DNA from: a virus
Taxonomy: Duplodnaviria > Heunggongvirae > Uroviricota > Caudoviricetes
IMG/VR virus record: IMGVR_UViG_3300049846_001486
Location: 1 to 64,000 of that record
DNA: 64,000 nt
Strand: one strand, 5' to 3'
The translations under genes and the position numbers were made by a program. The notes under the pieces are model-generated. The model was given only the letters and a program-made list of their open reading frames with translations. It was not told where the DNA came from and made no database searches. Shown here one piece after another: positions 1 through 60,750 of the stretch. Within the stretch, counting starts at the first letter, position 1. Every line of letters starts with the position of its first letter.

Positions 1-95
1 ATGCTTTGAACGCCTTTTAATTCTACCTTAGCTCCATTTGGAAAATGGTAGGTGCGGTCTTGTAGTTTAACTTTCTTGAATACTGGTTTAGTCAT
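1..95 (-). CDS. hypothetical protein, N-terminal fragment (gene continues past the window start); N-terminus MTKPVFKKVKLQDRTYHFPNGAKVELKG
   Basis: Minus-strand ATG at 93-95 preceded by a strong RBS (AAGAGGAAAATAT). The frame stays open to position 1. Confidence 0.35.
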   Translation of the reverse strand, partial: MTKPVFKKVKLQDRTYHFPNGAKVELKGVQS

Positions 96-114
96 ATATT
101 TTCCTCTTAAAAGA

Positions 115-235
115 TGGTGGCCAAGGTGGGACTCGAACCCACAAGCCCATTACGGGCGGCAGATTTTATGATGTACACTTTTTTCAAAATGTACAGGGAA
201 AAGTCTGCTGCGTATACCAATTCCGCCACTTGGCC
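115..235 (-). tRNA. tRNA-like gene, type II (long variable arm) with a 39-nt insertion in the anticodon arm; identity unresolved
   Basis: The reverse complement gives a 7-bp acceptor stem GGCCAAG/CTTGGCC, discriminator A and CCA. D-arm is GCGG-AATTGGTAT-ACGC and T-arm is GTGGG-TTCGAGT-CCCAC. The variable-arm hairpin is GCCC-GTAAT-GGGC. Anticodon-stem halves GCAGA and TCTGC are separated by 39 nt instead of 7, and the insert contains a TGTACA...TGTACA hairpin. Confidence 0.45.
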
Positions 236-254
236 ATATTATTATTTATCTATC

Positions 255-830
255 CTATTCTGCCATGTCTCCGTGGTGGTCAACTTTGGATATCTCTTGC
301 TTATCCATATATCTCTTTATTTCTTCAAAAGAAATCGGCCTGTAAGGGGCATAACCTAGTACGAATGGAGCATCTACCCCAACATCAACAGATTTGCCCA
401 TAGGAGGCAGCGAGCCGTGGCTATGGCCGTGTAGCTGCCAAGACCCATGATGGCTCTTGTTCCACACTCGCATCCCGTAATGAAGAAGTACGAGCTTCTG
501 GCGGTCAACCGTCAGTTCTTTGTAATATTGTATAGAAGCGAACACCTTATCTGATATAAGGCGTTGTATGTTATTTTCGATAACCTTATCGTGGTTACCA
601 AGTATTAGATGCTTAATCCCATTTAGAGAATTCATATATCTAACAAGCTCTTCATATTTCATAAAAGCAACATCACCCAGCATCCAAACAATATCATATT
701 GCTGAACTACTGAGTTCCAATTATCTCTAAGAGTCCTATTCATTTCTTCAACATCAGTAAACGGTCTTTTCGAGTATCTTATTATATTTGCGTGACCTAT
801 ATGATTGTCACTAGTAAACCATAGATTCAT
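255..830 (-). CDS. calcineurin-like metallophosphoesterase / Ser-Thr protein phosphatase family
   Basis: Motifs present are SDNHIGH (DxH), LGDVAF (GD), GNHDK (GNHD/E) and GHSHG. RBS GGAGA is present, with TAAATG coupling to the upstream gene. The gene ends in a TAG stop. Confidence 0.8.
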   Translation of the reverse strand: MNLWFTSDNHIGHANIIRYSKRPFTDVEEMNRTLRDNWNSVVQQYDIVWMLGDVAFMKYEELVRYMNSLNGIKHLILGNHDKVIENNIQRLISDKVFASIQYYKELTVDRQKLVLLHYGMRVWNKSHHGSWQLHGHSHGSLPPMGKSVDVGVDAPFVLGYAPYRPISFEEIKRYMDKQEISKVDHHGDMAE

Positions 831-1028
831 TTATTTCTTATCTCCATAATATTCATCACATTCCTTTTTTTGTATACATGCCGCATTTTTAACCATCATG
901 GAATCCCATAAACTTGGGTAAATCATAGAAGACCCGCATTTGGGGCAAATTCCTGCTGATAGTACACTAAATTCTACGATGATTCTGGCCGGTGGCGGTG
1001 GCGGTGGGGCTGGTATATCTTTGTTCAT
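831..1028 (-). CDS. small zinc-ribbon protein with a PPPPPPP tract
   Basis: 65 aa with CPKCG...CIQKKEC Cys pairs, translationally coupled to the downstream phosphatase. Confidence 0.4.
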   Translation of the reverse strand: MNKDIPAPPPPPPARIIVEFSVLSAGICPKCGSSMIYPSLWDSMMVKNAACIQKKECDEYYGDKK

Positions 1029-1042
1029 ATATTTTCTCTATC

Positions 1043-1118
1043 TGGTCCTTCCGGTGGGACTCGAACCCACACACAGTATTTTAGAGACACCTGCTCTAAC
1101 CAATTGAGCTACGGAAGG
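1043..1118 (-). tRNA. tRNA with a CUA anticodon (putative amber/UAG suppressor tRNA)
   Basis: A 76-nt cloverleaf. Acceptor is CCTTCCG/CGGAAGG with A73 and CCA. D-arm is GCTC-AATTGGTTA-GAGC. Anticodon stem is GGTGT/ATACT with two G.U pairs, and the loop is C-U-CUA-A-A, so positions 34-36 read CUA. Variable loop is GTGT. T-arm GTGGG-TTCGAGT-CCCAC is identical to the neighbouring tRNA-like gene. Confidence 0.6.
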
Positions 1119-1215
1119 TTCATTTATATAGGTATGTTAGCATATGTATAATTTCTTGTCAACAAAAGAAAAAGGGGCGTTTAAGCCCCTTTTCTTGAAT
1201 TAGGTATTACTACCA

Positions 1216-2664
1216 TTATTCGTCTTTTGCCGGATTTCCTTTGTTGTCAACCTTGGTATTAACCTGTAGGTCTTTAGCCAACATTAGCGTCATGACATTC
1301 ATCAAGTTTGCCATATCAGCCTGATTACCAGTTGGTACGCCAGCAGCGGATGCGCCACCACCCATGATTGTTACAGACTGTGGTACTGGACGAGTTGCCG
1401 AAGCAGCGGCCCATGTCTGGTGAATCTTGACAGCGGCCTCTAACTTAGTAGCCAAACCGTCGTCGGCCTTGATGCTCTTCTGCTTCTGATAAGCTTCGGC
1501 ATCGGCTCTAACCTTGATAGCCTGAGCATCAAGATTTGCGACTCTGACCTTAATAGCAGCAGCGCGTTCGTCAATCTTAGCCTGTTCTTCGGCTCTGCTG
1601 GCTTCAATCAAAGCCAATGCCTTTGCGGTTTCAGCAGCAGTAGTCTTAGCAATCTGCTCTTTCAAGTTTTCCTGCTGTGCTTCGGCCTGAGCGCGTTCAC
1701 CAGCAGCGATTACATACTGCTTCTGTTCTTCTTCCTGAATCTTCTTTTCACGGGCCTGTTGTCTGGCAGCGGAAGCTTCCTGAATTGATTGCAAACGCTT
1801 TCTGAACTGTGGGTTCGGTTCGAAGTCGGTCACGATGGCCGTTTCTACTGTGATGCCAAACTTCTCGAAAGTGTGGTGCAACTTCAAAGGCTGTCCGTTC
1901 TTATCCAAGATTTTGCTTACGCGGAAAATTACCTTGTATTCGTCCGCTTTAGCACCATAATCCTCTTGGTCTTTACGACGAGCAGAGTCGGCTGTAGCTC
2001 TCTGTTTAGAAGTTTCAAGGATTGGAACCTGAACTTCCTCACGCTGAACCTGATAGATACCAGTTCTCATTTGTTCATCGAAATCCGCAGCGAAAGTAGG
2101 GACGCCGCCGTTGAAGTAATCTTCGGCGCTCATTAACTGTGCTGTGGTTTTCATGGTTCTATCAATAGCCGGAATCAATTCCGTGTGTAGCAAGTTTTCA
2201 GGAGTGCGGTATTCCTGTGCCATCTTTAGGAAGGTAGCCGGGTCGTCTGAAATTCTGAAACGAACAGAAGTTTCCAACTTACCGTCAACCTTGTCTAACA
2301 TGGTTACATTAAGACCTTCTCTCTTGAAAGAGCCATCATCTGAGGTCTGTGTGTTTGATGTAATGACCGATGCGGCCTTTTTCCACGGGGTATAAGTACC
2401 AAACAAATGCATTTTCCAGCCAACGGTCGTTGATACCGATTCGTGACCTAAAATGTTTCTGATATGGTAATTGTAGCCGGGGTCTGCATAGAACCAAACA
2501 TTGCTGATGAATGTGACAGCGATGGCAAGGCCACCAACTCCCAAACTCAAAGCTTTAACCAAACCTTTAGTCCTACCGTAACGAGTTTCGTCCATTCCTT
2601 GGGAGAATTTATACCCAACGAATGTGGCTAAACTCAACAAAACTAACATAAAAATAGCGCCCAT
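1216..2664 (-). CDS. SPFH/band-7 (stomatin/prohibitin-like) membrane protein with a long C-terminal coiled coil
   Basis: N-terminal TM helix, then a roughly 200-aa globular domain, then about 200 aa of Ala/Glu/Lys/Gln-rich coiled coil. Strong RBS AGGAGAAAATAT. The SPFH fold is inferred from architecture only. Confidence 0.45.
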   Translation of the reverse strand: MGAIFMLVLLSLATFVGYKFSQGMDETRYGRTKGLVKALSLGVGGLAIAVTFISNVWFYADPGYNYHIRNILGHESVSTTVGWKMHLFGTYTPWKKAASVITSNTQTSDDGSFKREGLNVTMLDKVDGKLETSVRFRISDDPATFLKMAQEYRTPENLLHTELIPAIDRTMKTTAQLMSAEDYFNGGVPTFAADFDEQMRTGIYQVQREEVQVPILETSKQRATADSARRKDQEDYGAKADEYKVIFRVSKILDKNGQPLKLHHTFEKFGITVETAIVTDFEPNPQFRKRLQSIQEASAARQQAREKKIQEEEQKQYVIAAGERAQAEAQQENLKEQIAKTTAAETAKALALIEASRAEEQAKIDERAAAIKVRVANLDAQAIKVRADAEAYQKQKSIKADDGLATKLEAAVKIHQTWAAASATRPVPQSVTIMGGGASAAGVPTGNQADMANLMNVMTLMLAKDLQVNTKVDNKGNPAKDE

Positions 2665-2726
2665 ATATTTTCTCCTATGCTGGGATTGTGAATTGTACAG
2701 ATAACATTTCCAAAAGTCAACACTTG

Positions 2727-3371
2727 TTATCTTTTTATTTTTCTTCTTGCCATATCCAATTTTAACTTAGAAACTTTTGAAGTAAATACTACACCATGTA
2801 AGTGTTCGTATTCATGTAAGAATGCTCTAGCCCATATTCCTTCAAACTCTACGATATGTTCTTTACCATTTAAATCGAAGAATTTTCCTTTGACATTATA
2901 AGGTCTTGGTATTTTCAAAAACAATCCCGGAAAACTTAAACATCCTTCCATGATGGTTTCTGTTCTGTCCGATATTGAAAGAATTTCTGGATTGATACAC
3001 ACCCAATATCCGAAAGTTTTTTGTCCAATTACGAACATATTCAAATCTAAATTTACCTGTGGTGCGGCGAGACCTATACCCTGATTCTGAATCATAACTG
3101 CCAGCATGTTCAATGCCGTATCAGTCAAGTCTTCCGCCTTTCCAGTATAAGGAGGTATTTCTTTTTTCAATACATCATCATATTGGTCAACTAAGGTTAA
3201 TGTATCAAATATTTTCCCATGTAATTTTTGTCTCAATTCACCGGGAGTGAAGGTTGTATGAAAAGTTGTTCTATAATGGTCAATAATAGCAGGAGCTATA
3301 TCAGCCATACTCAAATTCCCCAATTGGTCGGAATTAATATCCAAGCCTACTCTGGTTAGCGTTTCATCCAT
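2727..3371 (-). CDS. def: peptide deformylase with an 85-aa N-terminal extension
   Basis: All three PDF motifs are present in order: GIGLAAPQ, EGCLSFPG and HEYEHLHG. RBS GGAGA lies 8 nt upstream of the ATG at 3371. Confidence 0.85.
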   Translation of the reverse strand: MDETLTRVGLDINSDQLGNLSMADIAPAIIDHYRTTFHTTFTPGELRQKLHGKIFDTLTLVDQYDDVLKKEIPPYTGKAEDLTDTALNMLAVMIQNQGIGLAAPQVNLDLNMFVIGQKTFGYWVCINPEILSISDRTETIMEGCLSFPGLFLKIPRPYNVKGKFFDLNGKEHIVEFEGIWARAFLHEYEHLHGVVFTSKVSKLKLDMARRKIKR

Positions 3372-3919
3372 TCTAATGTCTCCATTATGTTCTTATGGTC
3401 TTTCAAATCTGCCAAATTATATACAGGAACCTTATGAGCTATAGCAATTCTTATGGCCTGTCCTGTTCCTCCGGTATCTATAGTAGTCTGATGTTTAGCA
3501 CCATCAGGAGTCCAACATATAACAAAATCTACCGGGGAGTCCAATGTCTTATCTAACACTTGATATGTATTTCTAGCCATCAGGCGTTTAGCTATGGAGG
3601 AAAGTCTATTCCAAACAGGATGATGTTTCTTTGCTATATCATATGCGTAATCGTCTATTTCGGAAATGTACGCTTCGCCGTCACCAGATTTATTTTGAAA
3701 TTCATCGTGAGGCAAAAATATGGTCATATATTCTCTAAGAGGCTTATTGTGTTCTGAACAATAAGCCTTACATCCCTTTTCGAAGGCCGAGTCCGCTCCT
3801 GCGGCACCCCCACTTAAAAGACGATAAGATTTTTTGGCAGCATAGTATCCAAACTCTTCCATTATCTCTAATATGAGAGAAGGAGTCTGCCTCGAACCTA
3901 TTCCGCAATATTTCTTCAT
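3356..3919 (-). CDS. DprA/Smf-like Rossmann-fold (SLOG superfamily) protein
   Basis: Contains GIGSR...LSGGAAGADSAFEKG and GGTGQAIRIA, which resemble the DprA/LOG nucleotide-binding motifs. Its ATG overlaps the PTH2 stop (ATAATG). Confidence 0.45.
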   Translation of the reverse strand: MKKYCGIGSRQTPSLILEIMEEFGYYAAKKSYRLLSGGAAGADSAFEKGCKAYCSEHNKPLREYMTIFLPHDEFQNKSGDGEAYISEIDDYAYDIAKKHHPVWNRLSSIAKRLMARNTYQVLDKTLDSPVDFVICWTPDGAKHQTTIDTGGTGQAIRIAIAHKVPVYNLADLKDHKNIMETLEWMKR

Positions 3920-4344
3920 TATAGTAATGGTAGATTTCCCGTTATGGGTTCTAGTTGGTCGGGGTATGCCGGTCCCACAGCAACAGCCGTATAGGTAGGA
4001 ACTCCGTGGAATTCGGTATTACCCTTGTCTTGAATCAAGGCACAAAGCAAATTGCTGTCCTTGGCCTTCTGATAAAGGTCCAAAAGTTCTTGCTCAGAAT
4101 TGACATATACAACTATTTTGGTGAAAGCTCCGTTAAGCCATTCATCTAAGGCTTTATGGTCTTTATATTTCAATACTTTAATTGGATAATATATAGACGA
4201 GTCTTCCCCATCATCGTATGGAATTTCATTATTTTCCATCAAATCTAGTATGACCTTCATGGAGGCGTGGCTTGCTTGGGCAGCAATTTTACCCTTCCTC
4301 ATATTAAGGTCTTTTCTTATAATTATAATCTGTTTAGGCAACAT
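3919..4344 (-). CDS. peptidyl-tRNA hydrolase, PTH2 family
   Basis: MLPKQIIIIRKDLNMRKGKIAAQASHAS matches the PTH2 signature (GKGKIAAQCSHA in archaeal/eukaryotic Pth2). The start is placed at the internal Met at 4344, which has RBS GGAGA. The 25 upstream codons of the six-frame ORF lack an RBS. Confidence 0.8.
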   Translation of the reverse strand: MLPKQIIIIRKDLNMRKGKIAAQASHASMKVILDLMENNEIPYDDGEDSSIYYPIKVLKYKDHKALDEWLNGAFTKIVVYVNSEQELLDLYQKAKDSNLLCALIQDKGNTEFHGVPTYTAVAVGPAYPDQLEPITGNLPLL

Positions 4345-4437
4345 AAAAATATCTCCATCCTTGATTATATGATATTTGCAATTTTTAATCAAGTGTCGTA
4401 CAATAAATAATAAATACAAGATTAATGGAGATTAATT

Positions 4438-4956
4438 ATGAAAATTGGTGAAATCTTAAAGTCCACTTTATCCGAAGCTTTCGATGATTTAGAAGTAGAT
4501 ATTGATGATTTGGGGGTAGATGATGGTTCTCCAATTGAACCTGTATTAAAGCCTATTGGTGGGGAAAATTCAGCCACCGCCGATGAATTAACTCCTATTC
4601 AGAAAATTATATTGGCCAAAATAGCTAAAGGTACCTTAACCATTGATAGCGCAACGGATAAGCAGTTGGTTGTCATGGATGAATTAATGGATGTTGGTTT
4701 ACTTGACGCTCAGTACGAAATCACCCCAGAAGGGTCTACTGCCGCTGATATGGTTATCAACAAGAATACCCAAGACCAGATAGTTGCCCAGAAGATTGCC
4801 CAAAAGAACGGTGCTGATAAATTCGTCAAAGATAGACGAGTAAGAGACGCTTATAAGGGCGAATTAGATGACGAAGTTGCTGGCGACGATGAGGGTGTAT
4901 CTGCGCGTGACCGCGTTGGTTTTGACCCTGAATTCTATACTGGCGACAGAAGTTAA
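4438..4956 (+). CDS. acidic hypothetical protein
   Basis: 172-aa ORF rich in Asp/Glu. An ATAAATAATAAATAC late-promoter-like motif lies about 25 nt upstream. Confidence 0.4.
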   Translation: MKIGEILKSTLSEAFDDLEVDIDDLGVDDGSPIEPVLKPIGGENSATADELTPIQKIILAKIAKGTLTIDSATDKQLVVMDELMDVGLLDAQYEITPEGSTAADMVINKNTQDQIVAQKIAQKNGADKFVKDRRVRDAYKGELDDEVAGDDEGVSARDRVGFDPEFYTGDRS

Positions 4957-7163
4957 TTTCCGCTAACTACTCTAGAGAATCCTTTATCTAGTTCTATTTC
5001 GATTTTATCATCGAACATAGTAGCTATTTCGTCTCTATGACTGATTACCAACATTGACAGTTTGTTGTCCGAAGCTATCTGTTTAATCATCTTACAAGCT
5101 AACTGTACTCCGACATTACTCAATCCACGGTCTAAGCATTCGTCTAATACACATAGATTTATGATGCCGTGTCTTGCCTGTAGAACATCTCTGAAGCTGA
5201 ACATCAACGCAAGATTCAATCTAGCTTTCTGTCCAGACGATAGCAGCTTATAACCGATTGGCGTCTTAAACTGGGTAATCTTTACAGTCATATCTTGCTG
5301 GAATTCTACCTTATGAGGTAAGCCAGTTTTGTTAAGGTAATATTTCAATTTGGAATTTAACAAAGGTAGTCCCTTGTTCAATAACGCCTTTCTTATGAAA
5401 CTGTCTTTCTTAGTAAGCAGCTTGACCAAGAATTCTTTATGGAATATGGAGTCTTCCAAATCTGCCAACATTTGACTTCTATCTTCACCAAGCTCAAGCT
5501 CGGCTTTATCCAAATCTTCAAGCATCGAATCGAACGGGTTGACAGATTCAATCGCTTTCTTTAGAGCTTCTTTGTAAGTCTTGACCTTCTGTTGCGAGAC
5601 CGCAAGTTCCGATTCTGATTTAAACTTGAGTTTCTTGGCAATAGCTTCGATATCTGTTTTAACGGAACTGACTTTATCTTTAGCTTCGGTTAATTGCTCA
5701 CTAGCCGTAGATATTTTGAATTCCAAATCATCAACGAACATATCATATAATCCGTTGACATGAGGATTTTTAGTTTCAGTCAATAGTCTTAGTTTACTGG
5801 TAAGTTTATCCTTAGATGCCTCGTAGTCAAAAATTTGTTTCAAGGTTTTGAAGGTGCTGGTTGCCTCTACCTCGGCCTTTGCTTTGGTATATTTTTTGGA
5901 ATTCTTATCCAATGTAGCAAGCCCGGTTTCTATATCAGCCAACTCCGTTTCTATTTCAGAAAGTCTTGAGTTAGTGTGTTGTAATTTCTCTGCTGCATCT
6001 TTGAACTGTTGCGAACAGAACGGGCACTTGTTGTCTTGAAGTGAAGTCTGGTCCTTCAGATATTTGGCTTGTTCCTTTTGAATTGTAGATTTTTTAGTCT
6101 CTAGAACGCTCTTTTCGGTTTGGATTTCTTTGAGTTTGACCGAGATATCTTCCAGTAGACTGATGTTTTCTTTTTCTACCTCAACATCAACCTCTGGTAT
6201 GGCTTCTATTTGTTCTCTTACGCTCTTAATTTCTTTTAGATTGTTGGCTTCCCACTCTACTGCCTTTGTTTTGAGTAAGGTGTTTTGTTTTATAGAAGTG
6301 TCAAGCTCTTTAACAGCAGCTTCAGCATTTGCTAAATCTGTAGAAGATGCAGCTAACCAAACGAAAAGTTCCTCTTGTTCATTAAAGTCTATACCAGCTA
6401 ATGCCTCAAGTTGTGTTTCTATAGTTTGGATTTCAGTCTGCTTTTCAGTCTCCCAATTATCCCTTTTGGTTATGAGGTTTTGTTTTTGAACCAAGAAAGC
6501 ATTCTTAGCCTTTTTGGTCTGTTCGTTCAATTCCAAATAATGGTCAAAGTCCTTTTTATTGTTGGTTATTTCTTTCTTGAGTAATTCTGCTTTAAGACTC
6601 AATTCCGTGAAGCCGAAAAGTTCTTCTATAACCTCTCGTTGGTCGCCTAATTCCATGTTCAAGAACGGTTCGTAGTTAGCGTCGAATACTACTATTCTAA
6701 CGAAGATTTCAAATGGAATGCCTATGATTCTGGAGATTTCCTCATTGATATTCGAAACTCCGGCTGGGGTTATATCATCGTCTTCGGTAAATTTGGTATC
6801 GGAAGTTCGCTTGAACAGCTTAACTCCATCTCCACCCTTAGCCTTGTTCTTCCTGTAGCGTTCCACTTTGTAATACGCATCTTTCTTTTGGAAGATGATG
6901 TAGACTTCTAGATTCTCTTCATTTATGTTGTTTATGACTTCAGTTTTTGATATTCCGGAAATGGTCTTATCGTACAACACATAACATAGAGCGTTCAAGA
7001 TACTGGACTTACCTGCTCCGTTGCCGTCAACTTGCCCATCAACTGCGGAATCCAAGTTTCTTCCTATAATCAGCTTGGGCTTACCGAAGTCCAAACTAAT
7101 CTTAGTCATGTTGTTTCCATACGACTGGAAGTTTCTAAACCCGAGTTCCAATGCCTTAAACAT
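4953..7163 (-). CDS. 46: recombination ATPase, Rad50/SbcC family (T4 gp46-like)
   Basis: Walker A GNGAGKSSIL, central coiled coil with a CPFC zinc hook, ABC signature LSSGQKARL, Walker B VLDECLD and H-loop ISHRDE. It overlaps the upstream gp47-like gene as in T4. Confidence 0.9.
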   Translation of the reverse strand: MFKALELGFRNFQSYGNNMTKISLDFGKPKLIIGRNLDSAVDGQVDGNGAGKSSILNALCYVLYDKTISGISKTEVINNINEENLEVYIIFQKKDAYYKVERYRKNKAKGGDGVKLFKRTSDTKFTEDDDITPAGVSNINEEISRIIGIPFEIFVRIVVFDANYEPFLNMELGDQREVIEELFGFTELSLKAELLKKEITNNKKDFDHYLELNEQTKKAKNAFLVQKQNLITKRDNWETEKQTEIQTIETQLEALAGIDFNEQEELFVWLAASSTDLANAEAAVKELDTSIKQNTLLKTKAVEWEANNLKEIKSVREQIEAIPEVDVEVEKENISLLEDISVKLKEIQTEKSVLETKKSTIQKEQAKYLKDQTSLQDNKCPFCSQQFKDAAEKLQHTNSRLSEIETELADIETGLATLDKNSKKYTKAKAEVEATSTFKTLKQIFDYEASKDKLTSKLRLLTETKNPHVNGLYDMFVDDLEFKISTASEQLTEAKDKVSSVKTDIEAIAKKLKFKSESELAVSQQKVKTYKEALKKAIESVNPFDSMLEDLDKAELELGEDRSQMLADLEDSIFHKEFLVKLLTKKDSFIRKALLNKGLPLLNSKLKYYLNKTGLPHKVEFQQDMTVKITQFKTPIGYKLLSSGQKARLNLALMFSFRDVLQARHGIINLCVLDECLDRGLSNVGVQLACKMIKQIASDNKLSMLVISHRDEIATMFDDKIEIELDKGFSRVVSGN

Positions 7164-8232
7164 CGCCTAAATCCTTATATACTTTAATCAATTTCTGGTT
7201 ATCTATCTTAGGTTCTTTGATACGCCCTAGCAATTCTACCACAATGTTGGTAGTAGTTTCCAGTTCCATTCCTTCCAAATCCATATCCGTGTCAGTCAAC
7301 GCTTCATCGGTTGACATTTCCTCAAAGGTCAATTCTCTAAGCCCATATTTTTTCATGAGAGTATCACGAAGTTCGTTACTATCTTCTAGAGTCAAGTCTA
7401 TGTCGGCTAGGCATCTTACCCTTGCGTTCTTCTTAAGGTGGGTGTCCGGGTCTTCTATAATCTCGCTTAAGTTGGCTTTAACATAAGTAGGCATACCGAA
7501 GTCTGCTCCCCAGTTATAGAATGATGATGCGTCATCGTCGTAAGAATATAAAAAGGCTCCGCGTTCAGCGTCATTAGCATCGCTGAAGTCTGCCGGAAAT
7601 GCGTTGCCGATGTAACAGACATTATCCTTACATTGGCGCTTATGGAAGTGTCCAGAGAATATATGCTTTACGGCTTTGTATGGCTTGTGGTCCGGACCAT
7701 GTTCCAACACTCTAGTATCACCAGTTATAACGAATCCGGAGAACTCGAAATGTCCCCACCATATCGGCATGTTCGTGTATTGTAACAGTTCTGGATACTC
7801 TTCCGGCATCAAATACGGACTAACCAAAGCTCCCTTATCTCCCAACATAGGGAATATCTTCGGGGAATCATAAACTAGAGTTATGTTTTCAAACGGAGCG
7901 AATATTTCAGTAGTGTATACATCTCTCTTATCACGGTAATACATATCGTGGTTACCGACGCACATGATTACCGGAATCCCAAGCTGGTTTAATAGTTCCG
8001 CTCCCATATGAGAGTATTTGAGAGTTAAGCCATTGATAGCAGCGCGATGTTCGTGCCAGTCCCCCAAGAACATTATATGGTCTACCTTTTTCTTTTTTGC
8101 CAACTCACAGAACCATTTAATGAAATTGATACAATCTTGGTTATGAGTTTCACTATTGTTCTTTCGTCCAAAGTGTATGTCAGTAAAAACTAAAGCTTTC
8201 TTTAGTTTGACCGATTCATCTAGTTTTGACAT
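7156..8232 (-). CDS. 47: recombination nuclease, Mre11/SbcD family (T4 gp47-like)
   Basis: Phosphoesterase motifs FTDIHFG, FLGDWHE and GNHDM are present. It sits in the T4 47-46 arrangement next to gp55. Confidence 0.85.
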   Translation of the reverse strand: MSKLDESVKLKKALVFTDIHFGRKNNSETHNQDCINFIKWFCELAKKKKVDHIMFLGDWHEHRAAINGLTLKYSHMGAELLNQLGIPVIMCVGNHDMYYRDKRDVYTTEIFAPFENITLVYDSPKIFPMLGDKGALVSPYLMPEEYPELLQYTNMPIWWGHFEFSGFVITGDTRVLEHGPDHKPYKAVKHIFSGHFHKRQCKDNVCYIGNAFPADFSDANDAERGAFLYSYDDDASSFYNWGADFGMPTYVKANLSEIIEDPDTHLKKNARVRCLADIDLTLEDSNELRDTLMKKYGLRELTFEEMSTDEALTDTDMDLEGMELETTTNIVVELLGRIKEPKIDNQKLIKVYKDLGDV

Positions 8233-8235
8233 ATG

Positions 8236-8832
8236 TTACTCTTCCGGGTTAAGTTCGTCCGGGATATTTTCCGAATCTACTACTGGGTCTACGACTATTG
8301 GTTCCGATTTCTTAGCTTTTATGGAAGGAGTCGCATTGACCTCTTCGGTAACATCTCTGGGTTCTGGATTGAATGGATTGAATACACCAGAATTACCATA
8401 ATCTAGTTCGTCCGAGGTTGTGCCTCTGGAATGCTCATCGTCGTATCTTTCGGTGAAGCCATAGGACGGGTTATCTCCTTGCTCCATCAGCAATCTGTCT
8501 CTTATATCGCGTTCATCGCGTTCGATATTTAGGTACTGGTAGAATGCGTGTTTTATGGTTTGGGTATAATAAGCAAAGGGATTTTTACTTTTTTGAGGAT
8601 TGAAAGATTTCCAAGATTTACATAAGGTCATTAGAGCGAAGGCTTGCATATCTTCATTGTAGGTATAATTAACATATGTTCCTTTCTGGGCATACTTGGC
8701 ACATAATAACATGAACATTTTTGCCAATTCGTTAGTCATCTTCCCCTGTGCTAAACTTTTTTCTACTTCTGCTAAGAGCGATTTATTGTTTAAATAATTC
8801 TTCTTTGGTTTTTCCGCAACATCTTTTGTCAT
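8236..8832 (-). CDS. 55: late-transcription sigma factor (T4 gp55-like)
   Basis: N-terminus MTKDVAEKPKKNYLNNKSLLAEV resembles T4 gp55 (KPKYNYVNNKELL). It is about 198 aa and adjacent to 47/46 as in T4. TATAAATA-type motifs recur upstream of structural genes in this window. Confidence 0.7.
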   Translation of the reverse strand: MTKDVAEKPKKNYLNNKSLLAEVEKSLAQGKMTNELAKMFMLLCAKYAQKGTYVNYTYNEDMQAFALMTLCKSWKSFNPQKSKNPFAYYTQTIKHAFYQYLNIERDERDIRDRLLMEQGDNPSYGFTERYDDEHSRGTTSDELDYGNSGVFNPFNPEPRDVTEEVNATPSIKAKKSEPIVVDPVVDSENIPDELNPEE

Positions 8833-8908
8833 GATTTAAATACCCTTTATAGTTATAATTATCAGTATTTGTAGATATATTAGCACATTAAGAACTTTAT
8901 GTCAAATT

Positions 8909-8932
8909 AATTGTTGTTTTTTTGCAACAATT
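8909..8932. promoter_or_regulatory. inverted repeat AATTGTTG-N8-CAACAATT in the divergent gp55 / 8987 intergenic region (putative operator)
   Basis: Perfect 8-bp arms with the spacer TTTTTTTG, located between divergently transcribed genes. Confidence 0.3.
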
Positions 8933-8986
8933 TTCAATTCGATTATTTTCGATAAATATTATAGCAGTTTAATAGGTAAATTATAA

Positions 8987-11722
8987 ATGGCCGCTAAGAC
9001 CCCAGAAGAACAACAAGCACAAGAAGCTTTTGCTAGCCTTATCAAATCTTTAAAAGAAACAGAAATTTCTATGAAGGATTATAGAAAGGAAGTAGAAAAG
9101 ACATATCCAGCGTTTAAAAACCTAACTACAATCCTAAAAGGTGCATCAGGGTTGACTACCTTAATGGATGAGTTTAAAGATGAACTTAAAGACTTACAGG
9201 AAGACTTTGAACAAACTGCTGGAGAAAATAAAGAATTAGCTGATAGAATGAAAAAAGCATCTGACAGCGTTTCTCAATTTACAAGAATCAATCATAAAAA
9301 TGTTGACAAACTAAAAAGTTTCAAAAAATCTATCGAAAGCGTCTCATCTGCTACCAAGGCTTTAAAATCCGTTCAAGATTTATCGGCAGAATCGTTAGAA
9401 GCATTATCTAAGAAAACTAAAGTACATAACGATATGTTAGCTCAAATGAAAGTTGAGGGAGCTTCCCTTAATGTTTCCATCTTGCAACAATTGAAGGAAC
9501 AGCAAGACCTTAAAGAAAAGGAAATGAGAAGCATAGAAAAATTCAATAAACGAATTTCCGAAATCTCAGAAAAATTGAAAAATGGAAGTTTGTCTGAAGA
9601 TGCTGAAAAATACAATAAAGAGTTGTTACAAGTATTGACTTCTAAGCGAGATGAAAAAAATAAATCAATCTCAGATATTAATAAAAAGTTAACACAACAT
9701 CTTAATGCTATGCACGAAAATACAGCAATGCTTGGTGCAACCGCTAAAACTTTTGATAAGACTTTAAAATTCAATAAAGAGGCTATGGGCGAATTTCGTT
9801 CTGCTATAGTTCAAGTTGGCGAATCTTTAGCCAAAGTAGTAAAGGGCATAACACAAAATGCTATAGGAAATGCTAAATCCAGAGCGCAAACGACTCAATC
9901 TACAAGCATTCTTGAAGGGTTGATTACCGCAGGTAAGGGCGGTGTATCTCAAGGACAATTGTTTGATTATTACAATGCTAGTAAAGGTAATTTAACATAT
10001 GCAGCCGGAAATCAAGATACTAAAGAGTTTGCAAAAGGTCGCTTTGATAAATTTGAAAGCGCAACAGAAAACTTGGGATTAGTTGGGGAAGAAGCCATTG
10101 CCTATTTACAACAAATGGATTCTAGAGCAGTAGAAGGCGGTTATGCTTCTAAATTAGATTCTGCCACTACCTTCGAGTTAAACAATTTTAGAAAATTAAA
10201 AGACACTTTAAGTTTGACTATGGAAGATACTATAGACTTATATGCAGAATTAGCAAAAAATCAAGAACTTCTATTAAAGGCTACTGACCCAAAAACTGGA
10301 AAAGTCAATCAAGCGTTGCTAATGCGTCATGTAAGAACTCTTGCGATGGAAAATAAGCTAAGAGGCATAACAAATGATAAACTTAAAGAAACTATAAAAC
10401 AACAGTTACAGACTCAGACCAATAATCGTTATTCTAATAATATCGGAGATGTTTACAGAAAAGCTATAGGGCAAAGATTATTAGCCCAACAATCCGGGGT
10501 TCAACTTAGTGAAAAAGAATTTCAGTTATTAATAAAAGCAGAAAGTGGTGGTGCATCCGCTGATGAAATGTCAACCGTATCCGACATTAAAAAGCGCATT
10601 GCTAGAGGCGGGCAGAAATCTATTTTGAAAGCTTCTCAAACTGGTGATTTGGGAACGAGAGAGGTGGGATTAAGATTTGCTCAAATTGGGGGTATTAGTC
10701 CTGAAGAAATGGAAGGTTCCATAGCCCAAGACCGCGTACAAGCTAACAGAGGTATGGCTGGTTACGAACATATAAAAAACAAAAAAGGCGAATATATTTT
10801 AGGTTACGATAAAGAAGGTAAAGAAATTCCATTTACGGAAGACCAAAAGGCTATATTATCACAAAATCAAATCGCATTAGATGCGTTTACTCCTGCTATA
10901 GATGATTCCACTAAAGCTTTGATATTTCTAAAAGAAGCAGCCGATGGCGTTAGCAAATCTGTATTTGGTGGGGTAGGCTCCGGAATTGCTGGGTTGTTTC
11001 AGGGTGCAACAAACGCCCTAGGAACAGGAGCAGCATTACATTTAGCAACAGGAGGTAAATCAACTTCTATGTTATCTAAGGCTCTGGGTATAGGGGGAGC
11101 AGCAACAGCCGGTTCAGCAACGGCTAGTGCTGTGGCCGGAGGCGCTGCCATAAGAGGAAGTGGTATGATTTTAGGTGGTAAGGCGGTTCCATTACCGGGA
11201 GCAGCACCTATGGGTACTATGGCTAAATTAGCGCGAGGCGGTCCTATAGTTGCTAGTGCGCTAGCAGTTGGTCAACAATTAACTACTTCTTTTGAAGAAA
11301 TGGAGCAAAATGTTGGAATCACAATTGGTGATAGCGCAAAGAAAGCTGCTGGAGTGTATTCAGCAAACTTCTTTAAAAATGTCGGTGATAATATGACATT
11401 AGGATATGCAGATAATATAGGAAAAGCTTTAGGCGGCATTGCTTACAATTTATTGGATGAGGAAGATGCGGATAATCTCACAGCTTTGAGTGATGTGTGG
11501 AATGAGTTAGTTCCGGTATTCATGGAAATTAAAGATAATACAAAGACTAGCGCAGAGAAAGCCGCAGAAGATTTGAAAAGACAAAAAGACAAGAACGCCA
11601 AAGACGAAGCTAAGGCGGCGGCAGATAAAAAGAAAGAAGAGCGTCAAACTGCATTAGATATGGCTATAGCATCTTCAGCACAAAACTTAAGAAATTCTGG
11701 ATTCGGCCCAAGAGGTATGTAA
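8987..11722 (+). CDS. large virion-associated hypothetical protein (911 aa) with N-terminal coiled coils and a Gly/Ala-rich hydrophobic C-terminal region; tape-measure or ejection-protein-like
   Basis: The first roughly 350 aa are heptad-rich. The C-terminal part carries segments such as GGVGSGIAGLFQGATNALGTGAALHLATGG and GIGGAATAGSATASAVAGGAA. The gene lies immediately upstream of portal. Confidence 0.35.
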   Translation: MAAKTPEEQQAQEAFASLIKSLKETEISMKDYRKEVEKTYPAFKNLTTILKGASGLTTLMDEFKDELKDLQEDFEQTAGENKELADRMKKASDSVSQFTRINHKNVDKLKSFKKSIESVSSATKALKSVQDLSAESLEALSKKTKVHNDMLAQMKVEGASLNVSILQQLKEQQDLKEKEMRSIEKFNKRISEISEKLKNGSLSEDAEKYNKELLQVLTSKRDEKNKSISDINKKLTQHLNAMHENTAMLGATAKTFDKTLKFNKEAMGEFRSAIVQVGESLAKVVKGITQNAIGNAKSRAQTTQSTSILEGLITAGKGGVSQGQLFDYYNASKGNLTYAAGNQDTKEFAKGRFDKFESATENLGLVGEEAIAYLQQMDSRAVEGGYASKLDSATTFELNNFRKLKDTLSLTMEDTIDLYAELAKNQELLLKATDPKTGKVNQALLMRHVRTLAMENKLRGITNDKLKETIKQQLQTQTNNRYSNNIGDVYRKAIGQRLLAQQSGVQLSEKEFQLLIKAESGGASADEMSTVSDIKKRIARGGQKSILKASQTGDLGTREVGLRFAQIGGISPEEMEGSIAQDRVQANRGMAGYEHIKNKKGEYILGYDKEGKEIPFTEDQKAILSQNQIALDAFTPAIDDSTKALIFLKEAADGVSKSVFGGVGSGIAGLFQGATNALGTGAALHLATGGKSTSMLSKALGIGGAATAGSATASAVAGGAAIRGSGMILGGKAVPLPGAAPMGTMAKLARGGPIVASALAVGQQLTTSFEEMEQNVGITIGDSAKKAAGVYSANFFKNVGDNMTLGYADNIGKALGGIAYNLLDEEDADNLTALSDVWNELVPVFMEIKDNTKTSAEKAAEDLKRQKDKNAKDEAKAAADKKKEERQTALDMAIASSAQNLRNSGFGPRGM

Positions 11723-29880: not shown

Positions 29881-29902
29881 TTTACATTAGTGGAAGCGAC
29901 TT

Positions 29903-58759: not shown

Positions 58760-58791
58760 AAATTATTGCTAAGACACTCTTTTTTTAGACT

Positions 58792-59345: not shown

Positions 59346-59367
59346 GAGTCTTTATGTGAGGTAATTT

Positions 59368-60747: not shown

Positions 60748-60750
60748 TAA

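What the first reader, a model, noticed from the sequence alone, without database searches (positions are those of the whole stretch)
115..4344. Accessory early block dedicated to translation and peptide processing
In 4.3 kb on one strand lie a metallophosphatase, a Zn-ribbon protein, two tRNAs including one with a CUA anticodon, an SPFH scaffold, peptide deformylase, a DprA/SLOG nucleotide-binding protein and a eukaryotic/archaeal-type PTH2 peptidyl-tRNA hydrolase. PDF is known from cyanophages. PTH2 together with a suppressor tRNA is an unusual pairing, because PTH2 recycles dropped-off peptidyl-tRNAs and could mitigate the cost of readthrough or ribosome stalling. The block may reprogram host translation.
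Basis: partly seen in the sequence, partly recalled or inferred. Interest (0 to 1): 0.6.

Follow-up and report, generated by a model that had tools for sequence, protein, structure and literature searches.

The report
Mosaic tRNA-care arm of jumbo phage
The listed genes are really there, in a giant T4-like phage related to Xanthomonas phage XacN1, but they are a patchwork of known accessory genes rather than one dedicated translation machine. The oddest item is a leucine tRNA gene interrupted by a conserved 33-base hairpin.

Summary
Observation confirmed. On the minus strand of 115-4344 lie PTH2, a SLOG/DprA-like protein, peptide deformylase, an SPFH protein, a tRNA with anticodon CUA, a 65-aa Cys-rich ORF, a metallophosphoesterase and a tRNA-Leu(UAA). 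PTH2 and PDF pass curated equivalog cut-offs and keep their catalytic residues.

Interpretation partly supported. The phage is a XacN1-like jumbo myovirus using the standard code.
- In XacN1-clade relatives PTH2 travels with the phosphoesterase, a Zn-ribbon protein and SLOG/NADAR/Nudix genes. It does not travel with PDF, SPFH or tRNAs.
- Across 65 distinct viral PTH2 loci, 38 have tRNAs within 10 kb, all co-oriented. PDF is nearby in 1 of the 80 loci fetched.
- One close relative (L395) keeps PDF > promoter > tRNA(CUA) > phosphoesterase > tRNA-Leu.
- PTH2 together with CUA suppressors was already reported for XacN1 and Atu_ph07.
- Phage genes are insulated from amber suppression: 48 of 54 stops are TAA, and every TAG is backed by a second stop 2-4 codons downstream.
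- "Early" is unproven.

Unexpected: the tRNA-Leu gene carries a 33-nt hairpin insertion at the classical group-I intron site. L395 retains it while its exons changed with compensation. Similar 27-49-nt insertions occur sporadically in other huge-phage tRNAs. The nearest precedent is the "enigmatic" Lak-phage tRNA introns.

The parts
3919..4344 (-). PTH2-type peptidyl-tRNA hydrolase, 141 aa. The true start is the ATG at 4344; the TTG-extended ORF reaching 4419 is not supported by the profile match.
   Evidence: Pfam PF01981 E=4.6e-32. TIGR00283 101.2 bits > 82. PDB 2zv3 E=1.5e-24 and 1xty. The Lys of GKGK and the Asp and Thr of D-x-G-x-T align with S. solfataricus K18, D86 and T90. About 20 aa are inserted relative to the archaeal enzymes.
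3356..3919 (-). SLOG/DprA-like Rossmann-type protein, 187 aa, with a GGAAGAD motif
   Evidence: PHROG 768 E=1.2e-57. Pfam DNA_processg_A and LDcluster4 hits are only sub-threshold. Homologs of 35-44% identity lie near PTH2 in XacN1, Xoo-sp13, RAS14, L001-3 and L011.
2727..3371 (-). Peptide deformylase, 214 aa, with a ~57-aa N-terminal extension
   Evidence: Pfam E=9e-38. TIGR00079 113.5 bits > 103.95. Motifs GIGLAAPQ, EGCLS and HEYEH are read from the translation. Best phage relatives are 40-43% identical.
1216..2664 (-). SPFH/Band-7 protein, 482 aa, with a hydrophobic N-terminus and an Ala/Glu/Gln-rich C-terminal half
   Evidence: Pfam Band_7 34.6 bits > 23.6. PHROG 11908 E=6.5e-69. Absent from the close relative L395.
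1169..1194 (-). Terminator-like hairpin after SPFH
   Evidence: 10-bp stem followed by a T run. A consensus match only.
1134..1162 (-). Sigma-70-like promoter (TTGACA-17-TAACAT) upstream of tRNA(CUA)
   Evidence: The equivalent TTGACA-17-TACTAT sits at the same place in L395.
1043..1118 (-). tRNA with anticodon CUA (reads UAG), CCA encoded, C1-G72, A73. The amino-acid identity is undetermined.
   Evidence: Rfam 65.4 bits; ARAGORN. 72 of 76 nt are identical in L395. The body most resembles phage tRNA-Lys, tRNA-Arg and tRNA-Trp at 77-80% identity.
831..1028 (-). 65-aa Pro- and Cys-rich ORF (CxxC-x19-C-x6-C); a possible Zn-binding protein
   Evidence: ORF. No hit in Pfam, PHROGs or NCBIfam. Absent in L395.
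255..830 (-). Small calcineurin-type metallophosphoesterase, 191 aa
   Evidence: Pfam 25.4 bits > 21.5. PHROG 547 E=1.2e-55. All metal-binding motifs are invariant in a 24-member alignment. The closest solved structure is the uncharacterised Aquifex aq_1665, PDB 1xm7, profile E=2e-23. 54% identical to XacN1 ORF293.
115..235 (-). tRNA-Leu(UAA) gene, type II, A73, CCA encoded, interrupted by a 33-nt insertion
   Evidence: Rfam 47.1 bits with a 36-nt insert. ARAGORN -i. Cloverleaf fold of -48 kcal/mol, z=-4.8.
168..200 (-). 33-nt insertion UUCCC-UGUACAUUUU-GAAA-AAAGUGUACA-UCAU in the anticodon loop. It contains a 10-bp hairpin. The exact junction is ambiguous by 1-3 nt.
   Evidence: Retained at 30 of 33 positions in L395, while the exons differ at 15 of 88 positions with compensated stems.
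2692..2720 (-). Sigma-70-like promoter match (TTGACT-17-TACAAT) upstream of SPFH
   Evidence: A consensus match only; the total count in the region is no higher than in shuffles.
4364..4392 (-). Sigma-70-like promoter match (TTGATT-17-TATAAT) upstream of PTH2
   Evidence: A consensus match only.
4438..4956 (+). Divergent acidic 172-aa ORF, a conserved neighbour of PTH2 in the XacN1 clade
   Evidence: tblastn 34-38% to the divergent ORF beside PTH2 in RAS14 and Xoo-sp13. No family hit.
1..94 (-). Start of the next co-oriented ORF (68 aa in the full contig). The arm continues to the capsid gene.
   Evidence: L396 is identical to the window over 7,425 nt. It continues orf68 - Nuc_deoxyri_tr2 - Zn_ribbon_8 - orf168 - DUF4326 - orf291 - Gp23.

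Best explanation
The region is part of a mosaic accessory arm of a XacN1-like, T4-related jumbo myovirus that uses the standard genetic code. The arm runs from PTH2 to the major capsid gene. It is not one co-inherited translation operon. It is made of at least two layers.

(1) An older layer is shared with the XacN1 clade. It comprises the divergent orf172 and PTH2, followed by the phosphoesterase, a Zn-ribbon protein and SLOG-type or other nucleotide- and ADP-ribose-related genes.

(2) A younger layer is seen only in this phage and one close relative. It comprises PDF, then a sigma-70-type promoter driving tRNA(CUA), the phosphoesterase and an insertion-bearing tRNA-Leu(UAA). SPFH and the 65-aa ORF are further, variable inserts.

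Inferred functions:
- PTH2 hydrolyses peptidyl-tRNA (and N-acylated aminoacyl-tRNA) that has left the ribosome. This keeps the tRNA pool, including phage tRNAs, usable during a translation burst or under tRNA-directed host defence.
- PDF adds deformylation capacity for nascent phage proteins.
- tRNA-Leu(UAA) serves UUA/UUG, which make up 69% of the phage's Leu codons.
- tRNA(CUA) reads UAG. The phage's own genes are shielded from it, so it acts mainly on host messages or is a pre-adaptation to TAG recoding.

Shown: gene identities, active-site conservation, synteny patterns and stop-codon statistics. Inferred: all activities, expression timing and any cooperation between the parts.
For: Identities.

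Phage type:
- gp46, gp47, gp55, portal, prohead protease, baseplate, sheath, tube and DNA polymerase are all present.
- The portal is 57% identical to that of XacN1.

Older layer:
- XacN1, Xoo-sp13 and RAS14 have the orf172 homolog beside PTH2, with the phosphoesterase (40-54% identity), an FmdB Zn-ribbon, NADAR, Nudix and SLOG within 5 kb. None has PDF, SPFH or a tRNA there.
- The same arm ends at the capsid gene here too.

Younger layer:
- L395 (phosphoesterase 85% identical) has PDF > TTGACA-17-TACTAT > tRNA(CUA) > phosphoesterase > tRNA-Leu with the insertion. It lacks SPFH and the 65-aa ORF.

PTH2-tRNA association:
- 16 of 65 loci have a tRNA within 0.5 kb, 26 of 65 within 2 kb and 38 of 65 within 10 kb. 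All 387 tRNAs are co-oriented with PTH2.
- In Ralstonia phage RsoM2USA, PTH2 follows a 16-tRNA array by about 400 bp.

Insulation from amber suppression:
- Stops are TAA 48, TAG 5, TGA 1. Each TAG is followed by another stop 2-4 codons downstream.
- There are no in-frame TAGs in real genes.

Codon match: UUA+UUG are 69% of Leu codons.

Literature:
- PTH2 is found across group 2/3 jumbo phages and was proposed to act in ribosome rescue after tRNA cleavage (PMC7824862).
- XacN1 has two CUA suppressors plus PTH, and no readthrough targets were found (PMC5852040).
Against: - No expression or activity data exist.
- The close-relative evidence rests on one 1.4-kb contig.
- The PTH2-tRNA statistic has no formal genome-wide null. 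In the reverse direction, 0 of 120 tRNA-Leu-centred viral loci contain PTH2, so PTH2 is a rare passenger of tRNA regions, not a standard part of them.
- PDF, a CUA tRNA and PTH2 all within 3.3 kb could still reflect selection for co-expression.
- The tRNA-Leu may be non-functional for decoding unless its insertion is removed.
Confidence: 0.6

Rival explanations
1. The block is a coordinated module that reprograms host translation: the CUA tRNA causes UAG readthrough, PTH2 recycles the resulting dropped-off peptidyl-tRNAs, and PDF processes the products.
For: - All three lie within 3.3 kb on one strand.
- PDF-tRNA(CUA) adjacency is kept in L395.
- CUA tRNAs lie within 10 kb of PTH2 in about 5 other lineages: L009, L017/19, L041, L048/51 and L055.
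- One PTH2 locus (L065) carries a phage tmRNA, another ribosome-rescue element.
Against: - In XacN1 the CUA tRNAs and PTH2 are more than 100 kb apart.
- Most PTH2 loci have no CUA tRNA nearby.
- PDF is near PTH2 in 1 of 80 loci, and that locus has no tRNA.
- A terminator and promoter split the block.
- From established knowledge, Pth enzymes act off the ribosome and readthrough does not by itself produce drop-off.
Confidence: 0.15
2. A counter-defence, tRNA-damage-response island. PTH2, the metallophosphoesterase and the SLOG, nucleoside-deoxyribosyltransferase-like and DUF4326 proteins act against host systems that cleave or modify tRNAs, or that signal through NAD+/nucleotide derivatives. 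The tRNAs replace damaged host tRNAs.
For: - PTH2 neighbours are NADAR, Nudix and SLOG in XacN1.
- They are HD_4, PRPP synthetase, Macro and NAMPT in L005.
- They are Nuc_deoxyri_tr2 and DUF4326 downstream in this phage.
- Homologs of the phosphoesterase occur in 18 of 120 tRNA-Leu-centred viral loci, and many of these lie within 90 nt or less of a tRNA gene.
- Iyer et al. propose PTH2 for rescue after tRNA cleavage and discuss these domains as counter-signalling enzymes (PMC7824862).
Against: - No substrate is known for this phosphoesterase family. The closest structure, 1xm7, is uncharacterised.
- Its ~60%-identical homologs sit in unrelated replication contexts.
- No RNA ligase or kinase was found in the 64-kb window.
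- PDF and SPFH do not fit the model.
Confidence: 0.3
3. The CUA tRNA is an evolutionary intermediate towards TAG recoding, or a relic of it. It is not a working partner of PTH2 or PDF.
For: - GC is 35-46% along the window.
- TAG and TGA stops are depleted to 5 and 1 of 54. This matches the route proposed by Borges et al.: low GC, then loss of TAG/TGA stops, then acquisition of a suppressor tRNA by standard-code relatives (bioRxiv 10.1101/2021.08.26.457843).
Against: - There are no in-frame TAG codons in any credible gene of the 64-kb window.
- No release factor or aminoacyl-tRNA synthetase was seen in the window.
- The rest of the genome was not examined.
Confidence: 0.3
4. Neutral accretion. 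The region is simply a hyperplastic zone where unrelated morons and tRNAs accumulate, with no functional relation among neighbours.
For: - Content differs between this phage, L395 and the XacN1 clade: SPFH, the 65-aa ORF, PDF and the tRNAs come and go.
- PTH2 neighbourhoods are very heterogeneous.
Against: - The co-orientation of all 387 tRNAs with PTH2 and the frequent distances under 0.5 kb argue for co-transcription.
- The PTH2-phosphoesterase and PTH2-orf172 linkages persist across phages with only 57% portal identity.
Confidence: 0.2

Closest known systems
PTH2 region of Xanthomonas phage XacN1 and relatives (Xoo-sp13, Stenotrophomonas RAS14/CM1, Ralstonia RsoM2USA)
   Same: - T4-like jumbo myoviruses (portal 41-57% identical).
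- PTH2 is 46-50% identical, with a divergent orf172 homolog beside it.
- Phosphoesterase (40-54% identical), Zn-ribbon and SLOG proteins lie nearby, and the arm ends at the capsid gene.
- XacN1 also carries CUA suppressor tRNAs.
- In RsoM2USA, PTH2 abuts a tRNA array.
   Different: - There is no PDF, SPFH or tRNA inside the XacN1 arm. XacN1's tRNAs lie in the terminal repeats, more than 100 kb away.
- NADAR and Nudix are present there but were not seen here.
- The arm sits between the prohead protease and the capsid gene in XacN1. Here it lies next to gp46.
PTH2 of jumbo phages as described by Iyer, Anantharaman, Krishnan, Burroughs and Aravind 2021 (PMC7824862)
   Same: An archaeo-eukaryotic-type Pth2 in group 2/3 jumbo phages, discussed together with tRNA repair and ribosome rescue.
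   Different: That survey does not report linkage to PDF, to suppressor tRNAs or to tRNA arrays. The linkage to tRNA arrays is quantified here.
Phage peptide deformylases (cyanophage and other marine-phage PDFs)
   Same: A single-domain type-1 PDF with all three catalytic motifs. 157 phage records carry a homolog, mostly Synechococcus and Vibrio phages.
   Different: - This one has a ~57-aa N-terminal extension.
- It is at most 43% identical to any phage PDF.
- It sits beside an SPFH gene and tRNAs. In Sinorhizobium phage Phosso, PDF sits between a DnaJ-like and a Clp-family gene.
'Code-change module' of TGA-recoded Jade phages (Borges et al., bioRxiv 10.1101/2021.08.26.457843)
   Same: A suppressor tRNA encoded in a standard-code region of a low-GC phage genome.
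   Different: [quoted passage not shown]
- Here there is no synthetase, no release factor and no recoded gene in 64 kb.
'Enigmatic', highly conserved tRNA introns of Lak megaphages (Devoto et al. 2019, PMC6784885)
   Same: Insertions in the anticodon loops of phage tRNAs in a bacterial host. They are highly conserved between related phages and have no known splicing mechanism.
   Different: - Lak introns are longer (for example 93 nt in tRNA-Tyr) and occur in Phe, Gly, Thr and Tyr tRNAs of TAG-recoded Prevotella phages.
- Here the insertion is a 33-nt simple hairpin in tRNA-Leu(UAA) of a standard-code XacN1-like phage.
Group I intron of tRNA-Leu(UAA)
   Same: The insertion sits at the same place in the anticodon (after U34). 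A phage example with a 653-nt intron carrying an HNH ORF lies at exactly this site in L087.
   Different: - 33 nt cannot hold a group I catalytic core.
- There was no Rfam intron hit.
- The window's insertion does not end in G.

Membership tests
PTH2 peptidyl-tRNA hydrolase (PF01981 / TIGR00283) | Profile score above the curated cut-off | tested here: met
   Pfam 111.1 bits > 23. TIGR00283 101.2 bits > 82. NF003314 109.6 bits is below its cut-off of 126.
PTH2 peptidyl-tRNA hydrolase (PF01981 / TIGR00283) | Catalytic Lys, Asp and Thr (S. solfataricus K18, D86, T90; residue numbering recalled from the literature) | tested here: met
   In the alignment to 1xty and 2zv3, RKGK aligns with GKGK and QDKGNTE aligns with EDAGKTQ.
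PTH2 peptidyl-tRNA hydrolase (PF01981 / TIGR00283) | Hydrolysis of peptidyl-tRNA | not testable with these tools
   Needs complementation of E. coli pth(ts) or an enzyme assay.
Peptide deformylase (PF01327 / TIGR00079) | Profile score above the curated cut-off | tested here: met
   Pfam 129.8 bits > 22.8. TIGR00079 113.5 bits > 103.95.
Peptide deformylase (PF01327 / TIGR00079) | Three metal and catalytic motifs: G-x-G-x-A-A-x-Q, E-G-C-L-S, H-E-x-x-H | tested here: met
   GIGLAAPQ, EGCLS and HEYEH are present in the translation. The same motifs occur in the L395 homolog.
SPFH / Band 7 | Band_7 domain above gathering score | tested here: met
   34.6 bits > 23.6, residues 92-314.
SLOG superfamily / DprA | Match to DprA or a SLOG-family profile above threshold | tested here: inconclusive
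   Pfam DNA_processg_A 16.5 bits < 29.6 and LDcluster4 16.1 bits < 26.3, each covering only about 45 residues. PHROG 768 'DprA-like' gives E=1.2e-57. No PDB relative by sequence. No structure was predicted.
Calcineurin-like metallophosphoesterase | Profile above threshold and the DxH / GD / GNH / H / GHxH metal ligands | tested here: met
   Pfam 25.4 bits > 21.5. D8, H10, D53, N79, H80, H117, H136 and H138 are invariant in 24 homologs.
Zn-ribbon protein | Two CxxC knuckles or a match to a Zn-ribbon family | tested here: not met
   There is only one CxxC plus two single Cys. No hit in Pfam, PHROGs or NCBIfam. No tblastn match to the FmdB proteins of the XacN1 clade.
Amber suppressor tRNA | Canonical tRNA with anticodon CUA | tested here: met
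   Rfam 65.4 bits. ARAGORN gives anticodon cta at position 35.
Amber suppressor tRNA | Aminoacylation and UAG decoding | not testable with these tools
   The amino-acid identity could not be inferred. Nearest bodies are Lys, Arg and Trp tRNAs at 77-80% identity.
tRNA-Pyl (ARAGORN's label) | Atypical tRNA-Pyl architecture (short D loop lacking GG, 3-nt variable loop), features recalled from the literature | tested here: not met
   The sequence has a standard GG-containing D loop, a 5-nt variable loop and a TTCGA T loop. The label follows the anticodon only.
Stop-codon-recoded phage (genetic code 15) | In-frame TAG inside conserved genes | tested here: not met
   The standard code gives contiguous genes. 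The only TAGs flanked by 50 or more open codons on both sides lie antisense to, or overlapping, known genes.
Group I intron in tRNA-Leu(UAA) | Catalytic core (about 200 nt or more, P3-P9) and a terminal G | tested here: not met
   The insertion is 33 nt. No Intron_gpI hit in window 1-8000 at E<=1. It ends in U under every junction that yields a UAA anticodon.
Archaeal/eukaryal bulge-helix-bulge tRNA intron | Two 3-nt bulges separated by a 4-bp helix that carry the splice sites, with the intron at position 37/38 | tested here: not met
   The MFE folds show a 3-6-bp U:A helix and then a symmetric 4x4 internal loop or 1-2-nt bulges. The insertion lies within the anticodon, not at 37/38. This was judged by inspection only.

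The most novel reading that the evidence does not exclude
The 33-nt hairpin in tRNA-Leu(UAA) may be a genuine mini-intron. It would belong to a sparse, phage-specific class of 27-49-nt structured insertions in the anticodon loops of huge-phage tRNAs (Leu, Trp, Glu, and one tRNA whose identity is ambiguous between Gly and Pro). These would be removed in infected bacteria by a so far unknown pathway, presumably protein-dependent cutting and rejoining. The nearest precedent is the unexplained Lak-phage tRNA introns.

An alternative that is equally unexplored: the unspliced molecule is still leucylated, because (from established knowledge) LeuRS ignores the anticodon. It would then serve a non-decoding role.

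The junction ambiguity even allows a UUA (ochre-reading) anticodon.
Probability: 0.4. Interest if true: 0.8.

Novelty: new member of a known kind. Interest (0 to 1): 0.42.

Why it matters
- For the block itself, the value is mainly corrective. PTH2, PDF, suppressor tRNAs and tRNA genes in jumbo phages are known. The data here show which linkages are real (PTH2 with tRNA arrays, and with a small phosphoesterase) and which are local accidents (PTH2 with PDF).
- The stop-codon pattern gives a clean example of a standard-code phage that can afford an amber suppressor. It is nearly all TAA, and every TAG has a backup stop. This is relevant to models of how recoding starts.
- The interrupted tRNA-Leu matters more. 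Bacteria have no known machinery for removing short non-self-splicing tRNA introns. Yet this gene shows compensated exon evolution with the insertion retained.
- If the insertion is spliced, phage-infected bacteria host an undescribed RNA-processing pathway.
- If it is not spliced, phages make chargeable tRNAs that cannot decode.

Tried and rejected
- Scans of IMG/VR with the PDF and SPFH proteins found no relatives, because the patterns were too specific.
- An exact look-up of the PTH2 protein found nothing.
- L007 is the only PTH2 locus with PDF nearby. ARAGORN's 'tRNA(cta) with a 486-nt intron' there lies inside a 401-aa ORF and has no Rfam support, so it is a false positive.
- Several ARAGORN 'introns' did not appear as tRNA hits in the Rfam search and were dropped: L011 Ile, L034 Ala, L035 Leu, L064 Val and L065 His/Gln.
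- The T4 late-promoter motif TATAAATA is not enriched (5 found against 7.3 expected).
- The sigma-70-like count in 1-9000 equals the shuffle mean (24 against 23.8). Timing therefore could not be settled from sequence.
- The idea that the phosphoesterase is specifically a tRNA-array enzyme was weakened. Homologs of ~60% identity sit next to replication genes.
- The 33-nt insertion is not repeated elsewhere in the window. Its core was not found in IMG/VR. So there is no evidence that it is a mobile repeat.
- No cultured phage carries any of the insertion-bearing tRNA-Leu types.
- The test of whether the insertion is more conserved than the exons was not significant (3/33 against 15/88 differences, p=0.39).
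- The amino-acid identity of the CUA tRNA could not be assigned.
- No structure prediction was run for the SLOG protein.

Full report
**1. Observation**

All lie on the minus strand between 115 and 4344. In the direction of transcription the order is:
- PTH2 (4344-3919)
- a SLOG/DprA-like protein (3919-3356)
- peptide deformylase (3371-2727)
- an SPFH/Band-7 protein (2664-1216)
- a terminator-like hairpin (1194-1169) and a sigma-70-like promoter (1162-1134)
- a tRNA with anticodon CUA (1118-1043)
- a 65-aa Cys-rich ORF (1028-831)
- a small metallophosphoesterase (830-255)
- a tRNA-Leu(UAA) (235-115)

PTH2 passes TIGR00283 (101.2 bits against a cut-off of 82). It aligns with archaeal Pth2 structures, with the catalytic Lys, Asp and Thr in place. 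PDF passes TIGR00079 (113.5 against 103.95) and shows GIGLAAPQ, EGCLS and HEYEH.

The 'Zn-ribbon' has no family support. The SLOG assignment rests on PHROG 768 (E=1.2e-57), because the Pfam hits are sub-threshold. The second tRNA is not a plain tRNA. It carries a 33-nt insertion in its anticodon loop, which is why default ARAGORN misses it.

**2. What genome this is**

The window encodes gp46/gp47-like nuclease subunits, a gp55-type late sigma factor, portal, prohead protease, baseplate hub and wedge, gp25, gp15, sheath, tube and a family-B DNA polymerase. It is therefore a T4-related myovirus of a bacterium.

The portal is 57% identical to that of Xanthomonas jumbo phage XacN1. It is 55-56% identical to Stenotrophomonas RAS14/CM1 and Xanthomonas Xoo-sp13, and 41% identical to Ralstonia RsoM2USA.

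The standard code gives tightly packed genes. Of 54 non-overlapping ORFs, 48 end in TAA, 5 in TAG and 1 in TGA. No credible gene contains an in-frame TAG.

A Logan contig from another sample (L396) is identical to the window over 7,425 nt and extends past the window start. After tRNA-Leu come a 68-aa ORF, a nucleoside-deoxyribosyltransferase-like protein, an FmdB-type Zn ribbon, a 168-aa ORF, a DUF4326 protein, a 291-aa ORF and the Gp23 capsid gene, all co-oriented.

**3. Comparative test of the 'block'**

In XacN1, Xoo-sp13 and RAS14, PTH2 (46-47% identical) has the same divergent neighbour as here, an orf172 homolog. It is followed within 5 kb by:
- the phosphoesterase (40-54% identical)
- an FmdB Zn ribbon
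- NADAR and Nudix proteins (as annotated in XacN1 and Xoo-sp13)
- a SLOG homolog (35-36% identical)

Further on lies the capsid gene. No PDF, SPFH or tRNA is present in that arm.

Across IMG/VR, 217 stretches encode a PTH2 relative. The figures below come from the 80 best loci (65 distinct PTH2 sequences):

| Measure | Count |
|---|---|
| tRNA within 0.5 kb of PTH2 | 16 of 65 |
| tRNA within 2 kb | 26 of 65 |
| tRNA within 10 kb | 38 of 65 |
| tRNAs co-oriented with PTH2 | 387 of 387 |
| PDF within 10 kb | 1 of 80 |
| SLOG within 10 kb | 4 of 80 |
| SPFH within 10 kb | 3 of 80 |
| phosphoesterase within 10 kb | 7 of 80 |

RsoM2USA shows the same thing in a cultured phage. There, PTH2 follows an unannotated 16-tRNA array by about 400 bp. 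The converse does not hold: none of 120 tRNA-Leu-centred viral loci has PTH2.

At short range the picture differs. L395 is a 1.4-kb contig whose phosphoesterase is 85% identical. It reads PDF, then TTGACA-17-TACTAT, then tRNA(CUA), phosphoesterase and tRNA-Leu with the insertion. It has no SPFH and no 65-aa ORF.

So there are two layers. The older is a PTH2/phosphoesterase/nucleotide-enzyme arm. The younger is a PDF/tRNA addition, with SPFH and the small ORF as the most recent inserts.

**4. The suppressor tRNA**

The CUA tRNA is canonical (Rfam 65.4 bits), has C1-G72 and A73, and encodes its CCA. It is 72/76 identical in L395. It is not a tRNA-Pyl in architecture. Its amino-acid identity could not be inferred.

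Every TAG-terminated ORF in the window has a second stop 2-4 codons downstream, so readthrough would add only 1-3 residues. The phage is thus insulated from its own suppressor.

The XacN1 authors reported two CUA tRNAs plus a PTH. They found nothing by in-silico readthrough of 18 amber stops (PMC5852040). Atu_ph07 is similar. Hence the pairing is a known genome-level co-occurrence in this group, not a peculiarity of this window.

The low GC and the TAG/TGA depletion fit the pre-recoding stage proposed by Borges et al..

**5. The interrupted tRNA-Leu**

The 121-nt gene folds as a type-II cloverleaf with A73. Its anticodon arm is prolonged by a 3-bp U:A helix, a 4x4 internal loop and a 10-bp hairpin capped by GAAA (-48 kcal/mol, z=-4.8).

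The insertion lies after U34. This is exactly where the classical group I intron of tRNA-Leu(UAA) sits, and where a phage tRNA-Leu in L087 carries a 653-nt intron with an HNH ORF. But 33 nt cannot be a group I ribozyme. Nor does the fold show a bulge-helix-bulge motif.

In L395 the exons differ at 15 of 88 positions. The changes keep the acceptor, anticodon and T stems paired. The insertion differs at only 3 of 33 positions, all outside the hairpin stem. The gene is therefore under selection as a tRNA with its insertion in place.

A gapped-pattern scan of IMG/VR found three more independent types with 32-38-nt hairpin insertions at the same site, on five contigs:
- L101, on a 318-kb contig
- L115
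- L126/L135/L137

In a four-sequence alignment, all seven acceptor-stem pairs and several D- and T-stem pairs carry changes on both sides with pairing kept.

The intron-less form with the same anticodon stem is far commoner, with at least 120 loci.

Other isoacceptors show the same kind of insertion:
- L037 and L046 (Gly or Pro, ambiguous) carry 27- and 30-nt insertions, with a compensatory U-A to C-G change in the hairpin. Only L046 has a full-length Rfam tRNA hit (57.5 bits).
- L391 tRNA-Trp has 41 nt and L346 tRNA-Glu has 49 nt. Both are full-length Rfam tRNA hits.

The frequency is about 2 in 978 tRNAs. The only precedent I found is the 'enigmatic', 'highly conserved' introns of Lak megaphage tRNAs, for example 93 nt in tRNA-Tyr (PMC6784885).

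UUA+UUG make up 69% of Leu codons in the phage's genes. A working tRNA-Leu(UAA) would therefore be useful.

**6. Timing**

Good sigma-70-like hexamers lie directly upstream of PTH2, SPFH and tRNA(CUA). The last is conserved in L395. However, the total number of such matches equals the shuffle expectation. The T4 late motif is not informative. The arm is co-oriented with the capsid gene, and in XacN1 it lies inside the head-gene cluster. 'Early' is possible for the tRNA unit but is not established.

**7. Reading**

The best-supported view is a mosaic accessory arm in which individual genes plausibly sustain translation:
- PTH2 recycles tRNA.
- PDF matures N-termini.
- tRNA-Leu matches codon use.
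- The CUA tRNA acts on messages other than the phage's own.

There is no evidence that they form one machine. A counter-defence or tRNA-damage reading is a serious, partly overlapping rival. It rests on PTH2 neighbours such as NADAR, Nudix, Macro, NAMPT, HD, SLOG and DUF4326. It also rests on phosphoesterase homologs embedded in tRNA arrays.

**8. Novelty**

The gene kinds, PTH2 in jumbo phages, phage PDFs and CUA tRNAs in XacN1-like phages are all published. The local arrangement is a new member of that known kind. The short hairpin insertion in tRNA-Leu is the one feature a specialist would stop at. It is conserved, phage-specific as far as sampled, and unexplained.

Noticed in passing
window 115-235 (-), insertion about 168-200; also L395:1166-1285, L101:3348-3466, L115:8175-8290, L126:251-372, L046:6082-6187, L391:8387-8506, L346:5011-5134: Short (27-49 nt) hairpin insertions in the anticodon loops of huge-phage tRNAs. 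The window's tRNA-Leu(UAA) has a 33-nt one at the classical group-I intron site, and a relative with compensated exon changes retains it. They are too short for a group I intron, show no BHB motif, and no mechanism is known.
   Followed up: partly
L087:999-1736 (-): A phage tRNA-Leu(UAA) interrupted after U34 by a 653-nt group I intron (Rfam 30.9 bits, below gathering) that encodes an HNH-type ORF. L091 is the intron-less allele with the same upstream flank.
   Followed up: partly
L293, L316, L323, L326, L329, L344, L354, L382, L383 (coordinates): Distant homologs (25-29% identity) of the window's 191-aa metallophosphoesterase sit inside phage tRNA arrays, flanked by tRNA genes within about 20-150 nt. 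Homologs occur in 18 of 120 tRNA-Leu-centred loci. Closer homologs (~60% identity) occur in unrelated replication contexts.
   Followed up: partly
window 29891-43276 (+), repeats 40112-42945: A giant 4,461-aa ORF lies between the baseplate wedge and gp15 genes and has no Pfam match. Its last ~2.9 kb is a degenerate 18-nt (Thr-Pro-Thr-Asn-Thr-Val-like) repeat array, which explains the extreme GC skew (-0.53) at 40-44 kb.
   Followed up: partly
window 49021-49512 (+): A TnsA-like endonuclease N-terminal domain ORF (E=6.4e-22) is wedged after the tail-tube gene. It is one of the few ORFs ending in TAG.
   Followed up: no
window 58334-58762 (-), 59365-63120 (+): A Nudix hydrolase lies on the opposite strand, next to a glycosyltransferase (PHROG 24687) and a Nol-like carbamoyltransferase (PHROG 1601). 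These may be DNA- or surface-modification genes.
   Followed up: no
L065:5319-5936: A phage-encoded tmRNA (Rfam 66.6 bits > 47) lies about 4 kb upstream of PTH2 within a 24-tRNA region of a 164-kb viral contig. This is a ribosome-rescue RNA next to a peptidyl-tRNA hydrolase.
   Followed up: no
L346:3766-4364, 6700-6824, 6835-6897: A viral tRNA region also carries a ROOL RNA (296 bits), a RAGATH-33 RNA (125 bits) and a near-threshold twister-P1 ribozyme match (61.1 bits against 67.2).
   Followed up: no
L005:10001-18204: In a 175-kb viral contig PTH2 is followed by a denV-like glycosylase, three tRNAs including Leu(UAA), an SPFH protein, an HD_4 hydrolase, PRPP synthetase, a Macro domain protein and NAMPT. 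This is a second lineage with PTH2, tRNAs and SPFH together, embedded in NAD+/ADP-ribose genes.
   Followed up: partly
L273 (Ralstonia phage RsoM2USA, record 103605-115654): ARAGORN finds 16 tRNA genes here. The GenBank record annotates none of them, and some overlap 'hypothetical protein' CDSs.
   Followed up: no
L394 (Sinorhizobium phage Phosso, record 124031-127793): The closest phage PDF sits between a DnaJ-like chaperone gene and a Clp-family ATPase gene. This suggests PDF travels with protein-quality-control genes in some jumbo phages, as it sits next to SPFH here.
   Followed up: no
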